This document shows positions 1 through 24,235 of a stretch of DNA of 37,360 nt, piece by piece. The position numbers were made by a program, and so were the translations under genes. The stretch is taken from IMG/VR virus record IMGVR_UViG_3300047539_000004. One strand, written 5' to 3'. Position 1 is the first letter of the stretch; every line of letters starts with the position of its first letter. The DNA is from an uncultured virus (IMG/VR IMGVR_UViG_3300047539_000004) (Duplodnaviria > Heunggongvirae > Uroviricota > Caudoviricetes). Under the pieces are notes generated by a model. The model ran no database searches. It was not told the DNA's origin and worked only from the letters and a program-made list of their open reading frames with translations.

Positions 1-336
1 TGTATCTCCCGCAAATGCGTTAGAACCGCCGCCTGTAATTGTTCCGGTGAATACTGAATGAATTCCATCAGTAGAAGCAGCAACTGAAGTCAGCACTAAT
101 ACACCGACTGAAGAAGCAGCAACTGAAGTTAGAGCCAATGCTGAACCTGTGTCAACCACCGCGCCTGAAACATCGGCAACTACGGGGTCAAGTTGAAAAG
201 TCTCTGGGTAACCACCCACACCAGTCAATGACAACTTAACACCATTGTACCCCGGAGTTGTTTTGCCGGGATGAATGTTGCCAGTTGACAAAATCTGTGC
301 TGCTACGCCAAGACCTGTAGTAGAATTAAATGCCAT
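1..336 (-). CDS. Virion structural protein downstream of the capsid gene (partial, runs off the window)
   Basis: ATG at 336 after GGAGA; open frame to the window edge (MAFNSTTGLGVAAQILSTGNIHPG...); rich in Gly/Ser/Thr/Val with a repeated LTSVAAS; lies right after the capsid gene. Confidence 0.7.
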   Translation of the reverse strand, partial: MAFNSTTGLGVAAQILSTGNIHPGKTTPGYNGVKLSLTGVGGYPETFQLDPVVADVSGAVVDTGSALALTSVAASSVGVLVLTSVAASTDGIHSVFTGTITGGGSNAFAGDT

Positions 337-394
337 TTATTTTCTCCATAGACGTCAAAGGAGAGTTTTTAGGCTCTCCTTCGATCAATTTGAA

Positions 395-3300
395 TTAGCT
401 GATTGCGCTTGCGGCATCAATCTCACGGATTCTGATTGTTGTATCCTATTTGTTATCAATAACTTGCGTCATTGAGTTAGGTCATTTCTGCCTAACTCTC
501 ATGGTTTTTGTTCCCATGAGAACGGACTATCGCATCACCTTTCGGTGCCCTCTCACTTAGTCTCTCACGCTGCCTTTCGGCTTGCGCCCTGTTAGCCATT
601 TCAGCTTCCAAGTCAATCAGAGTGGGTTTATTACTCGCCCCAATACAATGTTTAGGGCCGAGCGAAGTTGTAAAATGAACTCTATCAATTTGTTATAATA
701 TTTCCCAAATCTTTGGCTAAAGTATATATTTCTTCAAGCCTTTGTAAAACAACTTCTTGTGGAAGCTGTTTACCGTATGCGCGAGTCATGCTAGCTTCCA
801 TCCAAGCTTTTAAAGTAAAGCTAGATTTGCTAGTCTGACATGATAAGAATCTGGTTTCTTCGTGTGTAGTGCAGCAAGGAACTAAGTTACCTTTTACATG
901 GCCTATAGAGGAATTTAATCTATCTAATCCCCATACTTTACCATCTTCAGGCTTTCGTCCACAATAAGCACACACTCTAGGGTTTCCTTCACTATCTAAA
1001 TAGTAAGGAATAGCTTCAACAGGACTTGTAAATCCAAATTCCCGTTTTTCAAGTTTATCAGTCCACTTCATACTAGCGTAACGTTTCCGTATGCTCTTAT
1101 AATAACCGTTCGACATGGATTTAGCTTTTAAAACGCCTTCCATACCTTCCCGGTTAAAGTGAACTAGTTTACCTTGTTTTCTCCATTTCGCAGCCCATTC
1201 TTGAATAGTACCGATAGTTACGCCGGTTCTAGTTTGAATCTCTTTTTGACTACGATTTTTAGAAAGAAGTTCGAATACTTTATCTTCAGTTTCTTTATCA
1301 ATTTTTATCATGCATACCTTAGGAGATATTAGATTGAGCATTTCTGTCAATCTCTTATAGTTTTATTCCTATAAGATCGGACTATTACTTCAGCCGTTTG
1401 GCTGTCTTCTTGTTTAGTCTCTCACGGCGAAAAGAATTTGTCAAGTCTTTTCTTCCGCCTCGTTGCCGTTTCAGGTTTCGAGTCGATTAAAGAAGATTAC
1501 TGATATCCTGTTTAAAGGGTCAGCCCATATATGATATTCTTATATCATGTAATGTTTAGGAAGTCCATCCGGGGATTAGCCCTTCGGGATCGGCAACTGT
1601 CGGTTCCTGTTATTTAGTTGCCTACAACTTCTGAGAACGCCAAACCTTTTAAAATCAATAACTTACCAGCGTTCTGAACGATATTGCACTTGATGTTGCT
1701 CCATTCACCGTCACCAAAACCTGTATCGCCTTGCGCACCGAGTTTGATAGAGAAAATACCATCACGCCCGAAGCTTGGATTGTTACTCGCTTTTTATAGC
1801 GGAGCAAGTCATTTCTGCTTGCTTCTTGGAGTTAAATTCTGTTATTAATTTGCAATGCTCTAGGAATGTAGTTTGTGAGTAGTTACTTTTGAATGAATTG
1901 CACACTCCGCAGCAAGCTACTGTATTCTCAGTTTGATAACCTTTTGCATTGTCTACTCTATCTACACCGTTATAGGTGTAACTATTTTGACTACCATAAC
2001 ATTTAGGTTTCAAAATCTGATAAGGTTCTTTACCACAATAAAAGCAAGTTTGTTTTGTAAGAATTTGAAATTCTTCAAAACTCAAAGAAAAACTGTATCC
2101 ACGTTTCTTTGCCAGAGACTTGTAAGTACCCCACAATGAACGTACCAGAGTTGTTTCATTTTTAGGTATGAGTCCAAGCTGATACCTGCAACCACAACTT
2201 TTACAGTGACCGTTCCGTAACGATGTTCCGGTCACCACAATGGTCTTTCCGCAGTCACACTGGCATATCCAACGTGCTCTATTTTTCTTTGAAATGCTTC
2301 TTTTTATGACTAAAAGACTGCTAAATCTTTTTCCCAATAAATCGTCTAATGGGCACTTTCCGCAGCTTTTGGTTGAACCGCCTACAAGATTGCTGTAAAA
2401 GAGTATGTGCTCATTTCCACAATCACACATACATTTCCACCTTGTTGAACCGTTTACAGTTCCTTCACAAGATATCGCAACAAGGCGACCGAATCGCCTG
2501 CCAACGAGGTTGGTCTTCATTTTTTCTCCAAGAACGGACTATCGCATCTTCCAAAGTCTTATTATACCACAATAAGAATAGGAAGTCAAATCGTTTAGTC
2601 TCTACTGCTGCACGGTTGCCCTGCTTGCAGTCTGTTCCCATTTCAGGGTTCAGCTTGATTAGATTTGATTTTCCGTATCAGCTTTCGTCTGATAGGACAC
2701 CTTAGTTGATGTAGGTACGTAGGGCTGTTAGACCAGTCACTGACTTGTAGTTAGGTGTCTGGGTAACTTGGTTTGTTTGGAAGAAACGTACACCTGAAGA
2801 TGGGAACTCAATCATTTCTGCAAGGTCCACAGAAATCAAATCTTCCATCTTTGCTTGACCTACTGGTGTATGCTTCAAAATGTCGATAACTGAATCATTG
2901 CTGTTGTCAGCAAGAACGTCACCGATTGCAAATGGGTGAATTACGCCAGCAAAAGTCTTGCTTGCTTCGTCAAAGGGGCGAACTGAACGACCTGCAAGGC
3001 TCTGTACTGAGTTACGAATCTGGTTAAGGCTCAGAGTTGTAAACGCAGTTAGTGATGTTGCACCTAGCTGTGTTAGAACACTTGCATCAACTGCATTCGC
3101 ACCGTCTGCTGTTGCACGAACTAGACCGCTTAGTGACTCACCAAGGCGATATGAAAGTTCGCGTGCTACATTCTCTACAGTGTTATCAATTGCGGTTGCA
3201 AGTGATAGTGAACTGAAATTAGCATAGTCCTAAGTTGTTTTGGGGTTGCTGTGTCACCACAGGGCCGCTCTCATGGTCACCCATGAGTTCAGACTCTATC

Positions 3301-4525
3301 TTCACAGAATTGTCTGTGCCTGACGTATTAGTCGTTACGGATTCACCGCGATTAAGGGCCTTATTTTTATCATAGAATTCTTTGCGCTTGGATGGGTTTT
3401 GCTCCCGTTCACAACGAATAAATTCTAAGGCGTTTAATGCCTGTTCGCGTTTAATGAGTAAATATGGAAGGATTCCTAGTAGAAAAACTTCTTGCGCCTT
3501 CACACCGCCTTTCGTAAACCACTGAAATACTGGTCTTCCGGGGTTAAGTGCTTGCTTTTTTTTATAAACAACACCGCCAAAATTCTCAACAAAAAAGTCC
3601 ATTAGTTTTTGTGATGTATTGGCAACTTGTATACGAAGCATATAGGCTTTGTATGTAGTTCCGGCGCTGGTTACATGATTTGCTGCGCCAATGCTAATGC
3701 AGCCCTCTGCATCAACCATAGCGGCAGCATAAATCCAGTTTTCTTTATTACTCATTTGTGTCTTTCCTCGGTATTGTCTGTATTATAACAGAGTTTCACC
3801 GATATAGTCAAGTTTTGATTAATGAGAACGCCAACTAATTGATACTAAAGCACTTAGCGTACTCTCCGATGGTTGCTGTCGTAGTTAAAACGTTAATTGA
3901 AATGCCACTACCAACTGTACCCTCAGTTGTCTGAGTAGTATTAGCTGCAAAAGGTACGTACATGAAAAGTTCGTACTGATTACCGCTCTTAGTTGGTAAA
4001 TCCAATCTCTCAGAACATGCTACGAAAGGTGTTTGTGCTTTCAGATTCTCTCTGAATTTCTTCAAATTTGTTACGTGTTTTCACACGGATTAGGCATTTC
4101 TGCTAATCTCATACAGTTGTTTTTCCTGTATGTTCGGACTATCGCATCACTTAAATGAGTCTACATAAGCTTTTTATCTTCAACAGTTATGCCATATTTA
4201 CGCATAAGATGTTGCGGCATATCTCGATGAGCTTCTCTATACTTTTTAGCATATTGACGCATCTTATCTCGATGTGCAGCCCTATAGTTTTTATGATATT
4301 CTTTTAGTTGTTCTGGTGTTCTCATTATTTGTGTTCTCTCGCTTAGTCTCTCACGCTGCCATTACGCTTGCGCCCTGTTAGCAGATATAATACTCATTAT
4401 ATCATATTTCAGCTTCCAAGTCAATAAGAGAGAATTTAACCACGACAAGATTATTTATCGTAGTAACGTACTGTTGACTGAGGTAAATTAGACTGACTAT
4501 TACTTGATGGACTATAACCTGCCAT
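395..4525 (-). CDS. Major capsid protein, N4-gp56-like, 344 aa; exons 4525-4457, 4062-3856, 3229-2709, 1773-1668, 1606-1558, 685-654, 445-395
   Basis: Exons sum to 1035 nt in one open frame: MAGYSPSS...VRYYD|KKFRENLKAQ...IGEYA|DYANFSSL...GVIHPF...LRTYI|FGRDG...VQNA|EPTVADPEGLIPGWTS|YRVHFTTSLGP|DTTIRIREIDAASAIS*. Every junction follows the group I rule (exon ends in U, intron ends in G). Located after portal and scaffold. Confidence 0.88.
446..653 (-). ncRNA. Group I intron 6 (208 nt, no ORF)
   Basis: P1: CUCGGCCCU pairs with GGGGCGAG; core motifs GCAGCGUGAGAGACUAAG and GAUGCGAUAGUCC; ends UAACAAAUAG. Confidence 0.92.
685..1311 (-). CDS. Intron-encoded HNH-type homing endonuclease with N-terminal HTH-like region
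   Basis: CAYCG...GLDRLNSSIGHVKGNLVPCC; likely start ATG 1311 after TAAGGT; the TGA stop overlaps the 3' splice site. Confidence 0.75.
   Translation of the reverse strand: MIKIDKETEDKVFELLSKNRSQKEIQTRTGVTIGTIQEWAAKWRKQGKLVHFNREGMEGVLKAKSMSNGYYKSIRKRYASMKWTDKLEKREFGFTSPVEAIPYYLDSEGNPRVCAYCGRKPEDGKVWGLDRLNSSIGHVKGNLVPCCTTHEETRFLSCQTSKSSFTLKAWMEASMTRAYGKQLPQEVVLQRLEEIYTLAKDLGNIITN
686..1557 (-). ncRNA. Group I intron 5 (872 nt) with endonuclease ORF in its 3' region
   Basis: Core GCCGUGAGAGACUAAAC ... GAAGUAAUAGUCCG; ends AUAACAAAUUG; removal rebuilds a T|AT Tyr codon. Its P1 looks short (CCU with GGG). Confidence 0.85.
1607..1667 (-). other. 61-nt core-less group I-like mini-intron (intervening sequence 4)
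   Basis: Contains an in-frame TAA and shifts the frame; guide GGUUUGGCGUUCU pairs over 13 nt with ligated exons AGAACGCU|GAACC; small hairpin AGUUG-UAGG-CAACU; ends AUAACAG; no catalytic core. Confidence 0.8.
1783..2520 (-). CDS. Intron-encoded HNH homing endonuclease
   Basis: Two N-terminal GxRFxxL...WxCxCDCG...KSCG repeats; C-terminal CFYCG...GVDRVDNAKGY...CCGVCNSFK; GGAGA RBS. Confidence 0.88.
   Translation of the reverse strand: MKTNLVGRRFGRLVAISCEGTVNGSTRWKCMCDCGNEHILFYSNLVGGSTKSCGKCPLDDLLGKRFSSLLVIKRSISKKNRARWICQCDCGKTIVVTGTSLRNGHCKSCGCRYQLGLIPKNETTLVRSLWGTYKSLAKKRGYSFSLSFEEFQILTKQTCFYCGKEPYQILKPKCYGSQNSYTYNGVDRVDNAKGYQTENTVACCGVCNSFKSNYSQTTFLEHCKLITEFNSKKQAEMTCSAIKSE
2561..2589 (-). 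promoter_or_regulatory. Sigma70-type promoter inside intron 3
   Basis: TTGACT-17-TATAAT with an extended TG motif, 40 nt upstream of the HNH ATG. Confidence 0.75.
3219..3755 (-). CDS. Single-motif LAGLIDADG homing endonuclease
   Basis: WIYAAAMVDAEGCISI motif and ILPYLLIKREQA helix; the ORF continues through the intron core and 11 nt into exon 3. Confidence 0.88.
   Translation of the reverse strand: MSNKENWIYAAAMVDAEGCISIGAANHVTSAGTTYKAYMLRIQVANTSQKLMDFFVENFGGVVYKKKQALNPGRPVFQWFTKGGVKAQEVFLLGILPYLLIKREQALNALEFIRCEREQNPSKRKEFYDKNKALNRGESVTTNTSGTDNSVKIESELMGDHESGPVVTQQPQNNLGLC
3230..3855 (-). ncRNA. Group I intron 2 (626 nt) with LAGLIDADG ORF
   Basis: P1: GAGUACGCU with GGCGUUCUC; core CCGUAACGACUAAU ... 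AAGAUAGAGUC; ends AAACAACUUAG. Confidence 0.9.
3782..3811 (-). promoter_or_regulatory. Sigma70-type promoter inside intron 2
   Basis: TTGACT-18-TATAAT with an extended TG motif, followed by GAGGA and ATG 3755. Confidence 0.72.
4161..4325 (-). pseudogene. Truncated endonuclease VII-like homing endonuclease (54 aa) in intron 1
   Basis: MRTPEQLKEYHKNYRAAHRDK...HLMRKYGITVEDKKLM*; the xxKYGIT segment resembles the region just before the EndoVII nuclease domain, which is absent here. Confidence 0.6.
4396..4424 (-). promoter_or_regulatory. Sigma70-type promoter inside intron 1
   Basis: TTGACT-17-TATAAT with an extended TG motif. Confidence 0.72.
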
Positions 4526-4608
4526 TTTAGTTTCCTGTTATATGGAAACCCGTATTATTTTCCTCCAAAACAAGTACAAGTTTCTGTCCTTGTACGTCAA
4601 TTACATCA

Positions 4609-4700
4609 GTTAGTAATCCGACTAACCTTCAATTGCCTTCAACTAAGACTTCAGTTAAAGTTACCTCACGCATTGGTGGTTCAACAGTAATCCGACTGTT
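4609..4700 (-). promoter_or_regulatory. Twin hairpins in the capsid gene leader
   Basis: AACAGU-CGGAUU-ACUGUU (4683-4700) and GUUAGU-CGGAUU-ACUAAC (4609-4626). Confidence 0.55.
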
Positions 4701-4704
4701 TCAC

Positions 4705-5154
4705 CTATAAATCTGACACTGGACGCGCACTTTTATACATGCACAACCCATGTCTACCGTTTCCGTACATGTTCTCGTCAACAAGCGTCACCCTATACCC
4801 CAAATCGAAGTATAGTTTTTGTGCCGGATTGTTGGCCTCTACCTGAAGCCAAAATAGGCTATTCTCAGGCTTTTGAAACTCTCCAAAAGTCTTTTCAAAC
4901 ACTTCGAAAAGCTTTGTGGCGATTCCTTGCTTTCTATGTGTATACAATACTGCTATATTATAGACATATGGTAATTCATGTTTAATCTTACCAATTAAAA
5001 ATCCAACTACTGTTCCGTTGTCTTCTGCTACCCAAGTTTGCCCTTTCTCTGCCTGTGACATAAGTAACAGTTCAGGAGTGGGCCATTCGTGTGATAATTG
5101 GTCGATTATAAAGATTTGCTTAAAGTCTTCGTCTGTATACTTGCGTATAAGCAT
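4705..5154 (-). CDS. GNAT (RimI-like) acetyltransferase
   Basis: IAVLYTHRKQGIAT acetyl-CoA motif A; LQVEANNPAQKLYFDLGY. Confidence 0.88.
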   Translation of the reverse strand: MLIRKYTDEDFKQIFIIDQLSHEWPTPELLLMSQAEKGQTWVAEDNGTVVGFLIGKIKHELPYVYNIAVLYTHRKQGIATKLFEVFEKTFGEFQKPENSLFWLQVEANNPAQKLYFDLGYRVTLVDENMYGNGRHGLCMYKSARPVSDL

Positions 5155-6711: not shown

Positions 6712-8832
6712 TTATTCTGGTGTTGGTTCTTCTTCCCCGCCCTCTAATCCACCCGGATTAGGAGTACCCTCTTCAGCCTCTGACTTGACGCTGTTAAGAG
6801 TCGTGCCCACAATTATGTCTTTCTGAATTCTCTGTTGAGCCGCTTCGTTCTGTAATTGCGACTTCTGTTGAGCGTTCTGTTGGCTCAATGCCGATGATGT
6901 TGCTGCTTTGGTCTGTTGCTGTGCAGCTTGAGACTTGGCTTGCTGTGCAGCTATCATCTTAGGCGTAAGTGGCTTCACAATGTCATTGAAGTTCTTCCAC
7001 TCTGAAGCTTCCATCCACATCTTGAGAATTTCTTTGAAGTCAATGTACTCTTCATTAATCTCTGCAAGATTCTGTTGAATTGTCGGGTTCTCAAAAATCT
7101 GAGTAATCAAAGTCATTGACTGACTCATAGTTCTCTTAGCAGCTAGACTTGCTCCTGCAAGAACCTCATACTCGATCTGCGCGTCATGGAACGACTGCAT
7201 ATCTACTTCAAAATCCTTGCCCTTCTCTTCACCGAGTATTGCGAAAATCTCAGCATCAGAGAAATAAGTAAACACCAGCATATCCAAAATGTATAGCCAA
7301 GGCTTAAATACTTGCTCAATAAAGTTGTCAAGTGGTCCATCTAAACGTGTCGCACTTGCTTGTCCTAGTTGTGCCGCTCCTCCTGCTGTACGTCCCATTG
7401 AAGAACGTGGACCCGCTGAAGAACCTTGTACCAATTGCTGATCGGCTCCTGAACTACTTTCGGTAGCTTTTTCAGATTCCGATAAGGCAGACCATATATC
7501 TTGTGGAACCTTTGGGGTTTCCAGCAAGCCGTATGCTTCCTTAACGGCTGTGTCTACTGTAAGAATCTTGCCAATATTCGTTCTGATCATCTGGGTAGGA
7601 GTATTTGAATCTCTCTTACGCAGATAGATTGGGTTAACACCAAATGACAAGATTTTCAAGATAGCGTTAATCGTGCCTTGGTCTACTCTTTGGTTCTGCC
7701 CTACAATAAGTCCTAGACCCATTCCATAGAATGCCTTCGGTCTATTCCACCAATTAGCAGACAGGAACGGTAGGACGTTAAATGGGTTCTTCTGTGAGCA
7801 TAGTTTACGCTTTCTGTCAATAACCAGAATCTTTCTGCGCTTGTCCCAATACTCTAAGACTTCTAACTTCCTCAGTAACAAATCTGGAGAACTCTGGACA
7901 CTCATATCTTCGGCGTGATGTACAACACCTTTGACATAAGCGGCTTGGTCAGTAATCGACTGTTGCGGCATCCCCGCGTCTGTAGGCGCAATGAACCAAC
8001 TCTTTAGTTCTGTCTCGCTTGGTAACGTCCATCCTTCTTTATCAGGGTGTTTGTCGGGGAGGGCTTCAATGCCTTTGATAAGGTCTTGGAGTCCGTAAAA
8101 GTCCATGTAACGCATATCAATTGCGAAGTCGGCTCTACGAATATCGCCAACACTGCAATGCGGGTCTACAAGAACCTTAGAGATTTCTCTGCTCTCGATA
8201 AACGGTCTTGGAACATACTTACGAGTTACGGTAATATCTGGGGGCGAATCATTAGGAATCGTAGTGGTGCTTTGCATTCCCGGTATGTTACCGGACTTAA
8301 TCGAGTCCACAGTCGCTGTACGCTTACGTGTAATTACCTCTTTATAAGTAATCCCCCACTTCCAAATACCAGTCCCAAGATGGGCCATTTGTTCCAATCC
8401 CCACTTTGTCTCAGTTTTAAATGAGCATTCATCAAGTAAGTATGAAAACATAGCTGATTTAGCATCTACAACATTTTGTGAAGTCCCAGGATGAGGACGT
8501 AGAACAAACGGTGGATCGGTGTAGAACAGGCCCTTATATAAGGAGGGTACAATTGCATTTACTACTTTGGCGACAGTGAATCTCTGAACATTTGGTTCAA
8601 GAATATAGGTATTCTCAAACACCGACATTGGGCGTGGACTTTGGAAAAGTAAGTCTGAATCTCTCCACAAAAGCGCATATTGTTTGTTCTGAATAAAGGC
8701 TTCAGCAGTACTAGCTGAACCTACTACTAATGCAACTTCGGCATCGGAGTTCTTTAGCGTTCCATCAGTTTTGTAATCGGCACCTGTTAGTTCTCTGGTT
8801 GGATTTGCGCTCTCATTTTCTATTAATGCCAT
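6712..8832 (-). CDS. Portal protein
   Basis: 706 aa directly downstream of terminase; GTGIWKW, FYGMGLG, RTAGGA motifs and Gln-rich C-terminal coiled coil as in P22/N4-like portals. Confidence 0.85.
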   Translation of the reverse strand: MALIENESANPTRELTGADYKTDGTLKNSDAEVALVVGSASTAEAFIQNKQYALLWRDSDLLFQSPRPMSVFENTYILEPNVQRFTVAKVVNAIVPSLYKGLFYTDPPFVLRPHPGTSQNVVDAKSAMFSYLLDECSFKTETKWGLEQMAHLGTGIWKWGITYKEVITRKRTATVDSIKSGNIPGMQSTTTIPNDSPPDITVTRKYVPRPFIESREISKVLVDPHCSVGDIRRADFAIDMRYMDFYGLQDLIKGIEALPDKHPDKEGWTLPSETELKSWFIAPTDAGMPQQSITDQAAYVKGVVHHAEDMSVQSSPDLLLRKLEVLEYWDKRRKILVIDRKRKLCSQKNPFNVLPFLSANWWNRPKAFYGMGLGLIVGQNQRVDQGTINAILKILSFGVNPIYLRKRDSNTPTQMIRTNIGKILTVDTAVKEAYGLLETPKVPQDIWSALSESEKATESSSGADQQLVQGSSAGPRSSMGRTAGGAAQLGQASATRLDGPLDNFIEQVFKPWLYILDMLVFTYFSDAEIFAILGEEKGKDFEVDMQSFHDAQIEYEVLAGASLAAKRTMSQSMTLITQIFENPTIQQNLAEINEEYIDFKEILKMWMEASEWKNFNDIVKPLTPKMIAAQQAKSQAAQQQTKAATSSALSQQNAQQKSQLQNEAAQQRIQKDIIVGTTLNSVKSEAEEGTPNPGGLEGGEEEPTPE

Positions 8833-23829: not shown

Positions 23830-24235
23830 CTAGCTGTAAGATAACGCTCGTGAAAAGACGTTATTATGATAGGCGCACAACACGCGGGTTCAAATCCCGC
23901 CGCGTCCACCACAGATAGCATTGGGTGTTTCGGAAGACCCTATAGCTGAACCGACAGCGTGCTATCTGTTGTGGGCGCGATCTGGGAATCGACTGGCGCA
24001 TTGTTGGGATAACGACGAGCAGGGACTGATGCTCACCTTAACGAGAGTCAAACACAGATGCGAACGATAGTTCAAATCTTATGGAACAGCGCTATCTTGC
24101 ACTTGGGAATGCCTTAGCGGGTGGACTCAGTGTTGATGGTCTTCAGAATACCGAAGTTGCTATTCCAGAACTAATTGCAGCCTAAAAACTGTGGATACGC
24201 GCTGCCCTTTTGCGTGGGAACAGAAAAAGGGGCAA
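23830..24235 (+). ncRNA. ssrA: Circularly permuted (two-piece) tmRNA; outer ends approximate
   Basis: T-arm and CGCGTCC-ACCA end at 23911, upstream of the 5' acceptor strand GGGCGCG (23973-23979); G3:U70 pair; tag frame 24060-24185 starts AND and ends LIAA*. Confidence 0.88.

What the first reader, a model, noticed from the sequence alone, without database searches (positions are those of the whole stretch)
1607..1667. Core-less 61-nt group I mini-intron in an essential capsid gene: candidate for splicing by a neighbouring ribozyme
Seen: the insert GGUAAGUUAUUGAUUUUAAAAGGUUUGGCGUUCUCAGAAGUUGUAGGCAACUAAAUAACAG separates VQNA from EPTVADP, carries an in-frame UAA and shifts the frame. It has every substrate element of a group I intron. 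The 5' exon ends in a U that pairs with G. The guide GGUUUGGCGUUCU (1646-1634) pairs contiguously with all 13 nt of the ligated junction AGAACGCU|GAACC (P1 plus P10). It has a P9-like hairpin, the UAACA motif found near the 3' end of four of the five full introns, and a terminal G. P3-P8 are entirely absent. Established: group I cores can process P1/P10 substrates in trans in vitro. Inference: the capsid C-terminus is needed, so this may be a non-autonomous intron excised by one of the five ribozymes on the same transcript. I do not know a characterised natural phage example.
Basis: partly seen in the sequence, partly recalled or inferred. Interest (0 to 1): 0.95.

Follow-up and report, generated by a model that had tools for sequence, protein, structure and literature searches.

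The report
Spliced core-less mini-intron in phage capsid gene
A 61-base insert that breaks a soil phage's capsid gene is precisely cut out of the RNA although it lacks the catalytic part of a self-splicing intron, and it belongs to a family of such mini-introns that always sit just upstream of a complete intron, which probably does the cutting for them.

Summary
On the minus strand, 1667-1607 is a 61-nt insert between VQNA and EPTVADP of a capsid gene. The gene is also split by five full group I introns.

Metatranscriptome contigs from three studies join 1668 directly to 1606. A DNA contig from an independent sample keeps the insert.

The insert has a 5' exon U paired to a guide G, a contiguous 13-nt P10+P1 guide, a 3' hairpin and a terminal G. 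It has no P3-P8 core.

It is not unique. I found 21 distinct mini-introns (34-94 nt) at 7 sites in related capsid genes.
- All 21 follow the same rules.
- Nine guide positions carry compensatory changes.
- All 22 instances lie 20-103 exon nt upstream of a full intron, against 8 of 60 full introns that have such a neighbour.

Splicing is shown. Group I chemistry and catalysis by a neighbouring core are inferred, at about 0.6.

The closest precedents are the 56-81-nt degenerate group I introns of fungal rDNA and engineered trans-acting "spliceozymes". My searches found no phage or bacterial case. I rate it a new variant of a known kind, of high interest.

The parts
1607..1667 (-). 61-nt core-less mini-intron (the finding)
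   Evidence: Insertion relative to intact homologues. Skipped exactly in RNA contigs of 3 runs and present in the DNA contig.
1634..1646 (-). Internal guide GGUUU.GGCGUUCU: the P10 strand is 1646-1642 and the P1 strand is 1641-1634; G1641 pairs with the exon's last U (1668)
   Evidence: P10 position +3 covaries with the exon in L112.
1617..1628 (-). 3' hairpin GUUG-UAGG-CAAC, homologous to the terminal hairpin of intron 5 (GUUA-UUGA-UAAC) and followed by a UAACA-type tail
   Evidence: The comparison with the intron 5 3' end was made by eye.
1616..1622 (-). GGCAACU, which can alternatively pair with the 3' exon AGUUGCC (1598-1592): an extra exon clamp
   Evidence: 10 of 500 shuffles reach it. 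An A:U to G:C change is seen in L142.
1607..1607 (-). Terminal G of the mini-intron (omega-G position)
   Evidence: All 21 minis end in G.
1668..1773 (-). Capsid exon 4 (..FGRDG..NIVQNA); its last 8 nt AGAACGCU form P1
1558..1606 (-). Capsid exon 5 (EPTVADPEGLIPGWTS), the 49 nt between the mini-intron and intron 4
686..1557 (-). Intron 4: full group I intron (family A core at about 1480-1380) with an endonuclease-like ORF at 1350-685. It is the nearest candidate helper, 49 nt downstream.
   Evidence: The RNA joint skips 872 nt in 3 runs.
654..685 (-). Capsid exon 6 (YRVHFTTSLGP)
446..653 (-). Intron 5: ORF-less 208-nt group I intron (family A). It is a candidate helper, and it is the only downstream full intron in the relatives L112 and L142 that carry a mini at the same site.
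   Evidence: The RNA joint skips 208 nt.
395..445 (-). Capsid exon 7 (DTTIRIREIDAASAIS, stop)
1774..2708 (-). Intron 3: full group I intron with an HNH-type ORF at 2520-1783
   Evidence: The RNA joint skips 935 nt. A back-joined (circular) form is seen in run X17.
2709..3229 (-). Capsid exon 3
3230..3855 (-). Intron 2: family B intron with an endonuclease-like ORF at 3755-3219. Its IGS, UUGGCGUUCUCA, is identical to the mini's guide region.
   Evidence: The RNA joint skips 626 nt in run X15 only.
3856..4062 (-). Capsid exon 2
4063..4456 (-). Intron 1: full group I intron with a 54-aa ORF at 4325-4161
   Evidence: The RNA joint skips 394 nt in 3 runs.
4457..4525 (-). Capsid exon 1 (MAGYSPSSNSQSNLPQSTVRYYD)

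Best explanation
The 61-nt insert is a functional, non-autonomous group-I-type mini-intron. It keeps only what a group I active site needs from its substrate. That is a P1 helix (exon AGAACGCU with guide GGCGUUCU, and U.G at the splice site), an adjoining P10 (GGUUU with exon GAACC), a small 3' hairpin with a UAACA-type tail ending in G, and an optional extra clamp to the 3' exon. It has no P3-P8 core. SHOWN: it is removed from RNA exactly at U1668|G1667...G1607|G1606. It belongs to a family of at least 21 such elements whose guides co-vary with their exons. INFERRED (about 0.8): removal uses group I chemistry, meaning guanosine attack at the U.G pair followed by exon ligation after the terminal G. 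INFERRED (about 0.6): the catalytic core is borrowed from a complete group I intron lying 20-103 exon nt downstream on the same transcript. In the window this is intron 4, 49 nt away, or intron 5. The mini's preformed P1/P10 helix would dock into that core in place of the core's own P1. A downstream position would keep the helper tethered and unspliced while the mini is presented. The minis look like deletion derivatives of full introns, retaining the 5' guide plus the 3' terminal hairpin and tail.
For: RNA evidence.
- A joint 1605->1667 skips 61 nt, with 1 nt of ambiguity. It is seen in contigs of 3 of 3 metatranscriptome runs from 3 studies, at depths 384.5, 152.9 and 253 and with sides of 40-49 nt.
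- It is absent from the DNA run X7, whose 1437-nt contig runs through the insert.
- One 764-nt RNA contig with 0 mismatches carries the mini junction together with the intron 3 junction.
- All six predicted junctions match the RNA joints to the base.

DNA evidence.
- 14 DNA-type runs hold at least 0.85 of the region's sampled words.
- An identical 9.8-kb metagenome contig exists.

Family evidence.
- I found 21 distinct minis at CDS sites 60, 66, 161, 900, 906, 921 and 940.
- In 21 of 21 the exon's last U is paired to G.
- 21 of 21 end in G.
- 21 of 21 have a contiguous P10+P1 guide of 11-20 bp. Shuffles reach the observed length in 0-14 of 1000.
- 21 of 21 have an in-frame stop.
- Nine guide positions carry compensatory double changes among same-site minis. 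These include window GAACC/GGUUU versus L112 GAGCC/GGCUU.

Helper association.
- 22 of 22 mini instances have a full intron 20-103 nt downstream, against 8 of 60 full introns that have one within 105 nt (Fisher p=7e-12 on 18 versus 60).
- Only 6 of 22 have one within 106 nt upstream.

The helpers are real ribozymes.
- 14 ORF-less family A introns fold into P3-P9.1 with a P3/P7 pseudoknot.
- 97.6% of cells are paired, and 32 of 45 pairs show changes on both sides.
- 0 of 500 shuffles reach the observed values.

In vitro and engineered precedents.
- Guide supplied in trans to the Azoarcus ribozyme (PMC2709566, abstract).
- Tetrahymena 'spliceozyme' removing 100-nt introns in trans in E. coli (PMC4094466, abstract).
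Against: - No result identifies the catalyst. The helper idea rests on association and on elimination of alternatives.
- The RNA evidence comes from assembled contigs of environmental metatranscriptomes, not raw reads of a defined infection. DNA carry-over or an insert-free variant strain cannot be formally excluded. Two variant insert-free joints (1604->1669 and 1603->1681, with replaced letters) appear in the RNA runs.
- The association counts are not independent, because several minis share ancestry and intron sites cluster in the gene.
- No conserved mini-to-helper base pairing was found. The extra pairings seen are to exons and are only moderately above shuffles: 10 of 500 for the window, and up to 100-400 of 500 for others.
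- Intron 4's own P1 is weak, at 3 bp by my reading.
- Thermodynamic folding of the window mini with its flanks is not better than shuffles (z -0.43).
Confidence: 0.6

Rival explanations
1. The core is borrowed, but from any excised group I intron RNA diffusing in the infected cell, so this is true trans action. On this view the strict upstream-of-a-full-intron position reflects origin or joint inheritance (co-conversion with a homing neighbour, clustering of insertion sites), not a mechanistic need.
For: Five cores are made from the same abundant late transcript. Excised intron 3 persists as a circle in RNA. Engineered group I ribozymes act in trans in E. coli (PMC4094466, abstract). Intron insertion sites cluster at both ends of the gene.
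Against: Co-conversion or clustering should give neighbours on either side. Instead, 22 of 22 minis have a downstream neighbour within 103 nt and only 6 of 22 have an upstream one within 106 nt. Many downstream neighbours are ORF-less 200-230-nt introns without their own nuclease.
Confidence: 0.15
2. The mini-intron, together with flanking exon RNA, is itself a minimal self-splicing ribozyme. This is what was claimed for the 67-nt PaSSU intron of Phialophora, which spliced in vitro only when about 300 nt of exon were attached.
For: PMC3160393 (Background and Discussion read) reports P1, P7, P10 and a mid-intron to 3'-exon pairing in 63-75-nt introns. The window mini also has a mid-intron to 3'-exon pairing, GGCAACU with AGUUGCC, which covaries in L142.
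Against: Family members are as short as 34-36 nt, of which 11-13 nt are guide. That leaves no room for a guanosine-binding helix. No conserved P7-like pairing was seen across the 21 minis, and their internal sequences differ widely. The strict association with a full intron would be unexplained.
Confidence: 0.08
3. A protein enzyme removes the insert, for example an endonuclease plus an RNA ligase, or an intron-encoded protein. On this view the guide helix only marks the sites.
For: Degenerate group I introns of lichen rDNA cannot self-splice yet are removed in vivo, which led the authors to infer a dedicated machinery (PMC8527467, passages). Four intron ORFs are present in the window, three of them with endonuclease-like matches.
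Against: The invariant U.G wobble at the 5' site and the terminal G (21 of 21 each) are specific requirements of the group I active site, not of any known protein splicing endonuclease. No RNA ligase or splicing endonuclease family was found among 26 window ORFs scanned against Pfam. Only part of the genome is in the window.
Confidence: 0.08
4. The insert is not spliced. It is a disabling relic in a defective genome, and the joined RNA contigs come from insert-free relatives.
For: The contigs are assemblies from mixed communities. Variant joints lacking the insert but with replaced letters exist in the RNA runs.
Against: The joined contig matches the window's exons with 0 differences over 764 nt and also carries the neighbouring intron junction. 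The joined form is absent from the DNA run laid, and the insert-bearing DNA is present in many samples. Guides co-vary with exons across 21 minis, which requires selection on pairing.
Confidence: 0.04
5. Ribosomes pass the insert by frameshifting or by translational bypass of the T4 gene 60 type.
For: The insert is short, like the 50-nt gene 60 gap (recalled, not from a call).
Against: Stops close all three frames at the 3' end of the insert. The take-off codon GCU has no matching landing codon, because CAG precedes GAA. The same mismatch holds in L108 (CCU versus AUG). In any case the RNA lacks the insert.
Confidence: 0.01

Closest known systems
Small degenerate group I introns of fungal nuclear rDNA: PaSSU of Phialophora americana at 67 nt, with relatives of 56-81 nt in Phialophora, Porpidia and Arthonia (PMC3160393; abstract, Background and Discussion read)
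   Same: Similar size. P1 and P10 are retained and the P3-P8 core is missing. [quoted passage not shown] The elements must be removed for the host gene to function. They are proposed to be deletion derivatives of full introns.
   Different: The fungal introns sit in eukaryotic nuclear rRNA genes, essentially at one site and in one clade. They are reported to self-splice with long exon context and to end in U in PaSSU. The phage minis sit in a protein-coding gene at 7 sites, end in G in 21 of 21 cases, go down to 34 nt, and always lie just upstream of a complete group I intron. That points to a borrowed core.
Engineered trans-acting group I ribozymes: the Tetrahymena 'spliceozyme' (PMC4094466, abstract) and the Azoarcus ribozyme with its guide supplied in trans (PMC2709566, abstract)
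   Same: A group I core acts on splice sites of an RNA segment that has no core of its own. The intron interior is largely free and the sequences near the splice sites are constrained.
   Different: Those systems are man-made. In the spliceozyme the guide sequences belong to the ribozyme. Here the guide is inside the substrate intron, the system is natural, and the catalyst is not yet identified.
Canonical phage group I introns with homing endonucleases (T4 td, nrdB and sunY, recalled) and the five full introns of this same gene
   Same: The P1 U.G pair, P10, the terminal G, the 3' hairpin with UAACA tail, the host gene and the insertion-site logic all match. Sites 60, 66 and 161 carry either a full or a mini version in different relatives.
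   Different: The mini lacks P3-P9.1 and any ORF, so it fails the defining core test for the ribozyme family.
Euglena plastid group III introns and fragmented group II introns (recalled, not from a call)
   Same: They illustrate the concept of a streamlined intron that has lost catalytic domains and depends on RNA supplied in trans.
   Different: A different intron class and chemistry (branch-point adenosine), and a different host. This is an analogy only.

Membership tests
Group I intron (self-splicing ribozyme) | P1 helix between the 5' exon end and an internal guide, with a U.G wobble at the splice site | tested here: met
   The window has 8 bp with U1668 opposite G1641. All 21 minis show this, with compensatory changes.
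Group I intron (self-splicing ribozyme) | Terminal guanosine (omega-G) and P10 pairing of the 3' exon to the guide | tested here: met
   G1607. P10 is 5 bp, GGUUU with GAACC. All 21 minis end in G and have P10 of 4-8 bp.
Group I intron (self-splicing ribozyme) | Conserved catalytic core P3-P8 with the guanosine-binding site in P7 | tested here: not met
   The element is 61 nt in all. Beyond the 13-nt guide there is only one 4-bp hairpin. None of the GACUA...UAGUC, P3, P4 or P6 elements found in the 14 full introns is present.
Group I intron (self-splicing ribozyme) | Match to the Rfam Intron_gpI model | tested here: not met
   There is no hit at the gathering threshold or at E<=10 in 1-5000. 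This test is uninformative, because the five full introns of the gene are missed too.
Group I intron (self-splicing ribozyme) | Precise excision with exon ligation at the RNA level | tested here: met
   The joint skipping 61 nt is in 3 of 3 RNA runs and in 0 of 1 DNA run.
Group I intron (self-splicing ribozyme) | Guanosine-initiated two-step transesterification; self-splicing in vitro | not testable with these tools
   This needs biochemistry or small-RNA reads showing a non-templated 5' G.
Degenerate mini group I introns of fungal rDNA (PaSSU type) | Length of 56-81 nt with P1 and P10 but without P3-P6, P8 or P9 | tested here: met
   61 nt. Definition taken from PMC3160393.
Degenerate mini group I introns of fungal rDNA (PaSSU type) | [quoted passage not shown] | tested here: inconclusive
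   GGCAACU pairs with AGUUGCC. Shuffles reach this in 10 of 500, and one compensatory change is seen in L142. Similar clamps occur in other minis but are often within shuffle range.
Degenerate mini group I introns of fungal rDNA (PaSSU type) | A retained P7-like pairing; location in fungal nuclear rRNA genes; a single clade | tested here: not met
   No conserved P7-like pairing was seen among the 21 minis. The host here is a phage capsid gene.
Programmed translational bypass (T4 gene 60 type) | Matched take-off and landing codons flanking an untranslated gap that stays in the mRNA | tested here: not met
   GCU versus CAG. The gap is absent from the RNA.

The most novel reading that the evidence does not exclude
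Phage group I introns have evolved a natural division of labour. Substrate-only mini-introns (guide, 3' tail, terminal G) are parasites of complete introns and are spliced by the neighbour's ribozyme core acting on a foreign P1/P10 helix. That would make one core a shared, spliceosome-like catalyst for several introns on a transcript. The minis may also spread to new sites by retargeting their guide, because look-alike minis sit at sites 900, 906, 921 and 940.
Probability: 0.5. Interest if true: 0.92.

Novelty: new variant of a known kind. Interest (0 to 1): 0.86.

Why it matters
Group I introns are textbook autonomous ribozymes. A natural intron that keeps only the substrate half and relies on another intron's core would be the group I counterpart of the step thought to have led from group II introns to the spliceosome, with catalysis moved in trans.

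It also has a practical consequence. Inserts of 34-94 nt with stops make essential phage genes look broken, so gene callers and viral-genome quality tools will mis-annotate them. No RNA family model detects them.

The family offers a ready experimental system. It provides 21 natural variants with covarying guides and defined neighbours for asking how a group I core chooses between competing P1 helices. It may also suggest compact designs for guide-in-substrate RNA excision tools.

Tried and rejected
- Rfam at gathering and at E<=10 gave no intron hit, even for the full introns. It is uninformative here.
- The window's own assembly is not held. The nearest held record, G001, is a 5.7-kb fragment without the capsid gene.
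- An exact 22-mer of the mini found nothing in viral contigs.
- Frameshift and bypass readings were rejected on the stops and codons and on the RNA.
- The GTAAGT...CAG look, seen after sliding the boundaries by 1 nt, resembles a spliceosomal intron. I dismissed it as coincidence in a phage with group I hallmarks.
- The 12-mer UUGGCGUUCUCA shared with the intron 2 guide suggested descent from intron 2. However, 10 of the 12 bases are forced by the similar exon junctions (ACGCU|GA), and the mini's 3' half resembles family A, so I do not claim it.
- L135's apparent 46-nt 'mini' was an artefact: the contig starts inside a full intron. It was dropped before all counts.
- L107's 27-nt 'insert' at CDS 994 is a contig end inside an intron. 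I counted it as a truncated full intron.
- L098's 12-nt insert is an in-frame indel and was ignored.
- Seven of the 9 hits of the loose site-940 pattern had no capsid similarity and were ignored.
- I searched for pairing between minis and their helpers and found only exon clamps, many of them within shuffle range.
- Cross-site similarity of minis is modest, at z 3.8-4.3 for 5 pairs. It is a hint only.
- The folding energy of the window mini is not unusual.
- Pfam found nothing for the four intron ORFs. PHROGs gave endonuclease-type matches for three of them.
- Earlier-scan look-ups by place, by sequence and by words gave nothing on this element.
Full report
**What is there**

The window is part of a tailed-phage genome. 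It encodes a terminase, an SU10-type portal, a GNAT acetyltransferase, a family A DNA polymerase, methylases, five tRNAs and a permuted tmRNA.

Its major capsid gene lies on the minus strand from 4525 to 395. The nearest isolate is Tunturiibacter phage Tunturi_3, which has the same gene order and an uninterrupted 343-residue major head protein.

I compared the window with that protein by tblastn. I also aligned it at nucleotide level to the nearest of 59 unique intact capsid CDS from IMG/VR. Together these give seven exons separated by six insertions:
- Intron 1, 4456-4063, 394 nt.
- Intron 2, 3855-3230, 626 nt.
- Intron 3, 2708-1774, 935 nt.
- The 61-nt insert, 1667-1607.
- Intron 4, 1557-686, 872 nt.
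- Intron 5, 653-446, 208 nt.

The homologue reads ...NIVQNAEPTVADP... straight across the 61-nt site.

- The insert has an in-frame UAA, and stops close the other two frames at its 3' end. No frameshift can rescue the gene.
- The 5' exon ends in U.
- The segment GGUUUGGCGUUCU (1646-1634) pairs without a gap to AGAACGCU|GAACC, with the U opposite a G.
- There is a GUUG-UAGG-CAAC hairpin, a UAACA motif and a terminal G.
- No shuffle of the insert gave a junction-spanning helix of 13 bp: 0 of 2000 and 0 of 1000.
- The five large insertions are group I introns. Four share the core motifs CUGAAA...GACUAA...AUAGUC. Three of the four intron ORFs match endonuclease-type PHROG families; the 54-aa intron 1 ORF matched none.
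- Rfam misses all of them.
- An alignment of 14 ORF-less relatives of intron 5 folds into P3, P4, P5, P6, P8, P9 and P9.1, with an invariant P7 that forms the classic pseudoknot with P3. In it, 97.6% of cells are paired and 32 of 45 pairs change on both sides. None of 500 shuffles reaches these values.

**It is spliced**

The region 1400-2000 is held by 14 DNA-type peat or permafrost runs at 0.85 or more of its sampled words. Six metatranscriptome runs hold it at 0.35-0.58. I laid three RNA runs from three studies and one independent DNA run on 300-4700.

- All three RNA runs contain contigs that skip exactly 61 nt, from 1605 to 1667 with one ambiguous base. That is 1607-1667. Depths are 384.5, 152.9 and 253, with 40-49 nt on the shorter side.
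- The same runs skip introns 1, 3, 4 and 5 exactly at the predicted bases. One run also skips intron 2.
- One 764-nt contig with no mismatch carries the mini junction and the intron 3 junction together.
- The DNA run shows none of these joints. Its 1437-nt contig runs through the insert.
- A 9.8-kb metagenome contig is identical over the region.

Caveats: these are assembled contigs from communities, not raw reads of a clonal infection. Two variant insert-free joints with replaced letters also occur in the RNA runs.

**It is one of a family**

Among 38 non-redundant interrupted or truncated capsid regions from 139 loci, 34 carry insertions, and many of these are short. Three artefacts were removed first: L135, the contig-end piece of L107, and a 12-nt indel in L098. 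Four pattern scans added further cases. This leaves 21 distinct mini-introns of 34-94 nt at CDS sites 60, 66, 161, 900, 906, 921 and 940. Several are seen in two or more independent assemblies.

- In 21 of 21 the exon's last base is U and pairs with a G of the guide.
- 21 of 21 end in G.
- 21 of 21 have a contiguous P10+P1 guide of 11-20 bp. Shuffles reach the observed length in 0-14 of 1000.
- 21 of 21 carry an in-frame stop, including the six whose length is a multiple of three.
- The window's site has two further variants: L112 at 39 nt and L142 at 51 nt.
- Where the exon reads GAGCC instead of GAACC, the guide reads GGCUU instead of GGUUU.
- In all, nine guide positions show such double changes among same-site minis, in both P1 and P10.

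Such covariation between synonymous exon variants and the insert requires selection on the pairing, and hence on splicing.

**Anatomy and origin**

The 3' half of the window mini, AGAAGUUGUAGGCAACUAAAUAACAG, lines up with the 3' end of intron 5, GCAAGUUAUUGAUAACAAAUAG. Both have a 4-bp hairpin followed by a UAACA-type tail. The full introns of family A end the same way.

Sites 60, 66 and 161 carry a full intron in some relatives and a mini in others. The minis therefore look like full introns that have lost everything between the guide and the terminal hairpin.

Several minis have a further stretch complementary to an exon.
- In the window, GGCAACU pairs with AGUUGCC at +9 to +15 of exon 5. 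Shuffles reach this in 10 of 500, and there is an A:U to G:C change in L142.
- In L114 and L129, 8-9 bp pair with the 5' exon. Shuffles reach this in 0-1 of 500.
- Others are within shuffle range.

This recalls the mid-intron to 3'-exon pairing described for the fungal mini-introns.

**Who catalyses?**

This is not shown. The mini has no room for a core, and family members of 34-36 nt have even less. The strongest lead is position. All 22 instances lie 20-103 exon nt upstream of a complete group I intron in the same gene. By comparison, only 8 of 60 full introns have another full intron within 105 nt downstream (Fisher p=7e-12 on the first 18 instances). Only 6 of 22 minis have a full intron within 106 nt upstream. 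These counts are not independent, and intron sites cluster, but clustering alone does not predict the one-sidedness.

A simple rationale follows. An upstream ribozyme would be transcribed, splice itself and leave before the mini exists. A downstream one is still tethered when it folds and can dock the mini's ready-made P1/P10 helix instead of its own. In the window the nearest helper is intron 4, 49 nt away. The same-site minis in L112 and L142 have only the intron 5 homologue, 81-82 nt away.

The published record shows that group I cores can use a guide supplied in trans (PMC2709566, abstract). It also shows that an engineered Tetrahymena ribozyme can remove a 100-nt core-less intron in E. 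coli (PMC4094466, abstract). I put the helper model at about 0.6. The alternatives, with rough probabilities:
- A diffusible core with coincidental proximity: about 0.15.
- Minimal self-splicing: about 0.08.
- A protein machinery: about 0.08.
- No splicing at all: about 0.04.

**Comparison with what is known**

The nearest natural relatives in kind are the 56-81-nt degenerate group I introns of fungal rDNA. They retain P1, P10, a P7-like pairing and a 3'-exon pairing. One of them is reported to splice in vitro with long exon context (PMC3160393; abstract, Background and Discussion read). Lichen rDNA group I introns that cannot self-splice are nevertheless removed in vivo (PMC8527467, passages).

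The phage minis differ in host, gene type, number of sites and the invariant terminal G. They also go down to 34 nt and are coupled to a complete intron.

As for membership of the group I ribozyme family, the substrate features are met and the defining core is not. So the window element works like the substrate half of a group I intron but is not itself a group I ribozyme.

Six full-text searches found no report of core-less group I introns in phages or bacteria. Subscription journals are not covered by the library.

**Verdict**

The borrowed-core mechanism is inferred and testable. It is a new variant of a known kind, of high interest.

Noticed in passing
window 1774-2708 (minus strand): In RNA run X17 a 962-nt contig joins 2703 back to 1772, with 2 ambiguous bases and depth 36. 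That places the intron 3 terminal G next to about the 4th intron base, giving a circularised intron lacking a few 5' bases. Group I introns are known to form such circles (the circle chemistry is recalled).
   Followed up: partly
window 3230-3855: Intron 2 (family B, endonuclease-like ORF) is retained in high-depth RNA contigs of runs X16 and X17. In X17 the stretch 2708-4062 is contiguous at depth 196. Intron 2 is skipped only in X15, at depth 77. It may splice poorly or late.
   Followed up: no
window 3819-3830 and 1633-1644: The intron 2 guide region and the mini's guide region share the 12-mer UUGGCGUUCUCA. The intron 2 guide pairs better with the exon 4 end (8 bp) than with its own exon 2 end, which has a U-U mismatch that is also present in L107. 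The intron 2 ribozyme could therefore in principle bind the mini's 5' splice site.
   Followed up: partly
window 1654-1664 and about 455-465: AAGUUAUUGAU occurs both at the 5' end of the mini and in the terminal hairpin of intron 5 (and of L112's homologue). In the mini, GUUAUU (1662-1657) can pair with AAUAAC (1614-1609), closing the element.
   Followed up: partly
window 23846-24185: Rfam finds a permuted (two-piece) tmRNA at 58.2 bits against a gathering score of 47. It lies among four tRNA genes on the plus strand of this phage region. ARAGORN did not call it.
   Followed up: no
related loci, e.g. L092 5857-7865, L082, L122: The capsid gene family is an intron hot spot. I saw full introns at at least 18 different CDS positions across relatives, with up to six insertions per gene, belonging to two core families (A: UUGACUUGGAAGCUGAAAUGG; B: AAAUCUUGCUAUAUCGGUG). 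None is detected by Rfam in the window.
   Followed up: partly
L131 872-913, L087 about 6936-6986: In some relatives the mini's 3' part is complementary to the intervening exon immediately upstream of the downstream intron's own P1. Examples are L131 GACGUAG with CUACGUC, and L087/L098 UAGUCUA with UGGACUA. Such pairing would place the mini beside the helper, but shuffles often reach these scores (44-128 of 500).
   Followed up: partly
window 1661-1667 and 1607-1609: Slid by one base, the insert reads G|GUAAGU...ACAG|G, a textbook spliceosomal-looking boundary. I take this as coincidence.
   Followed up: no
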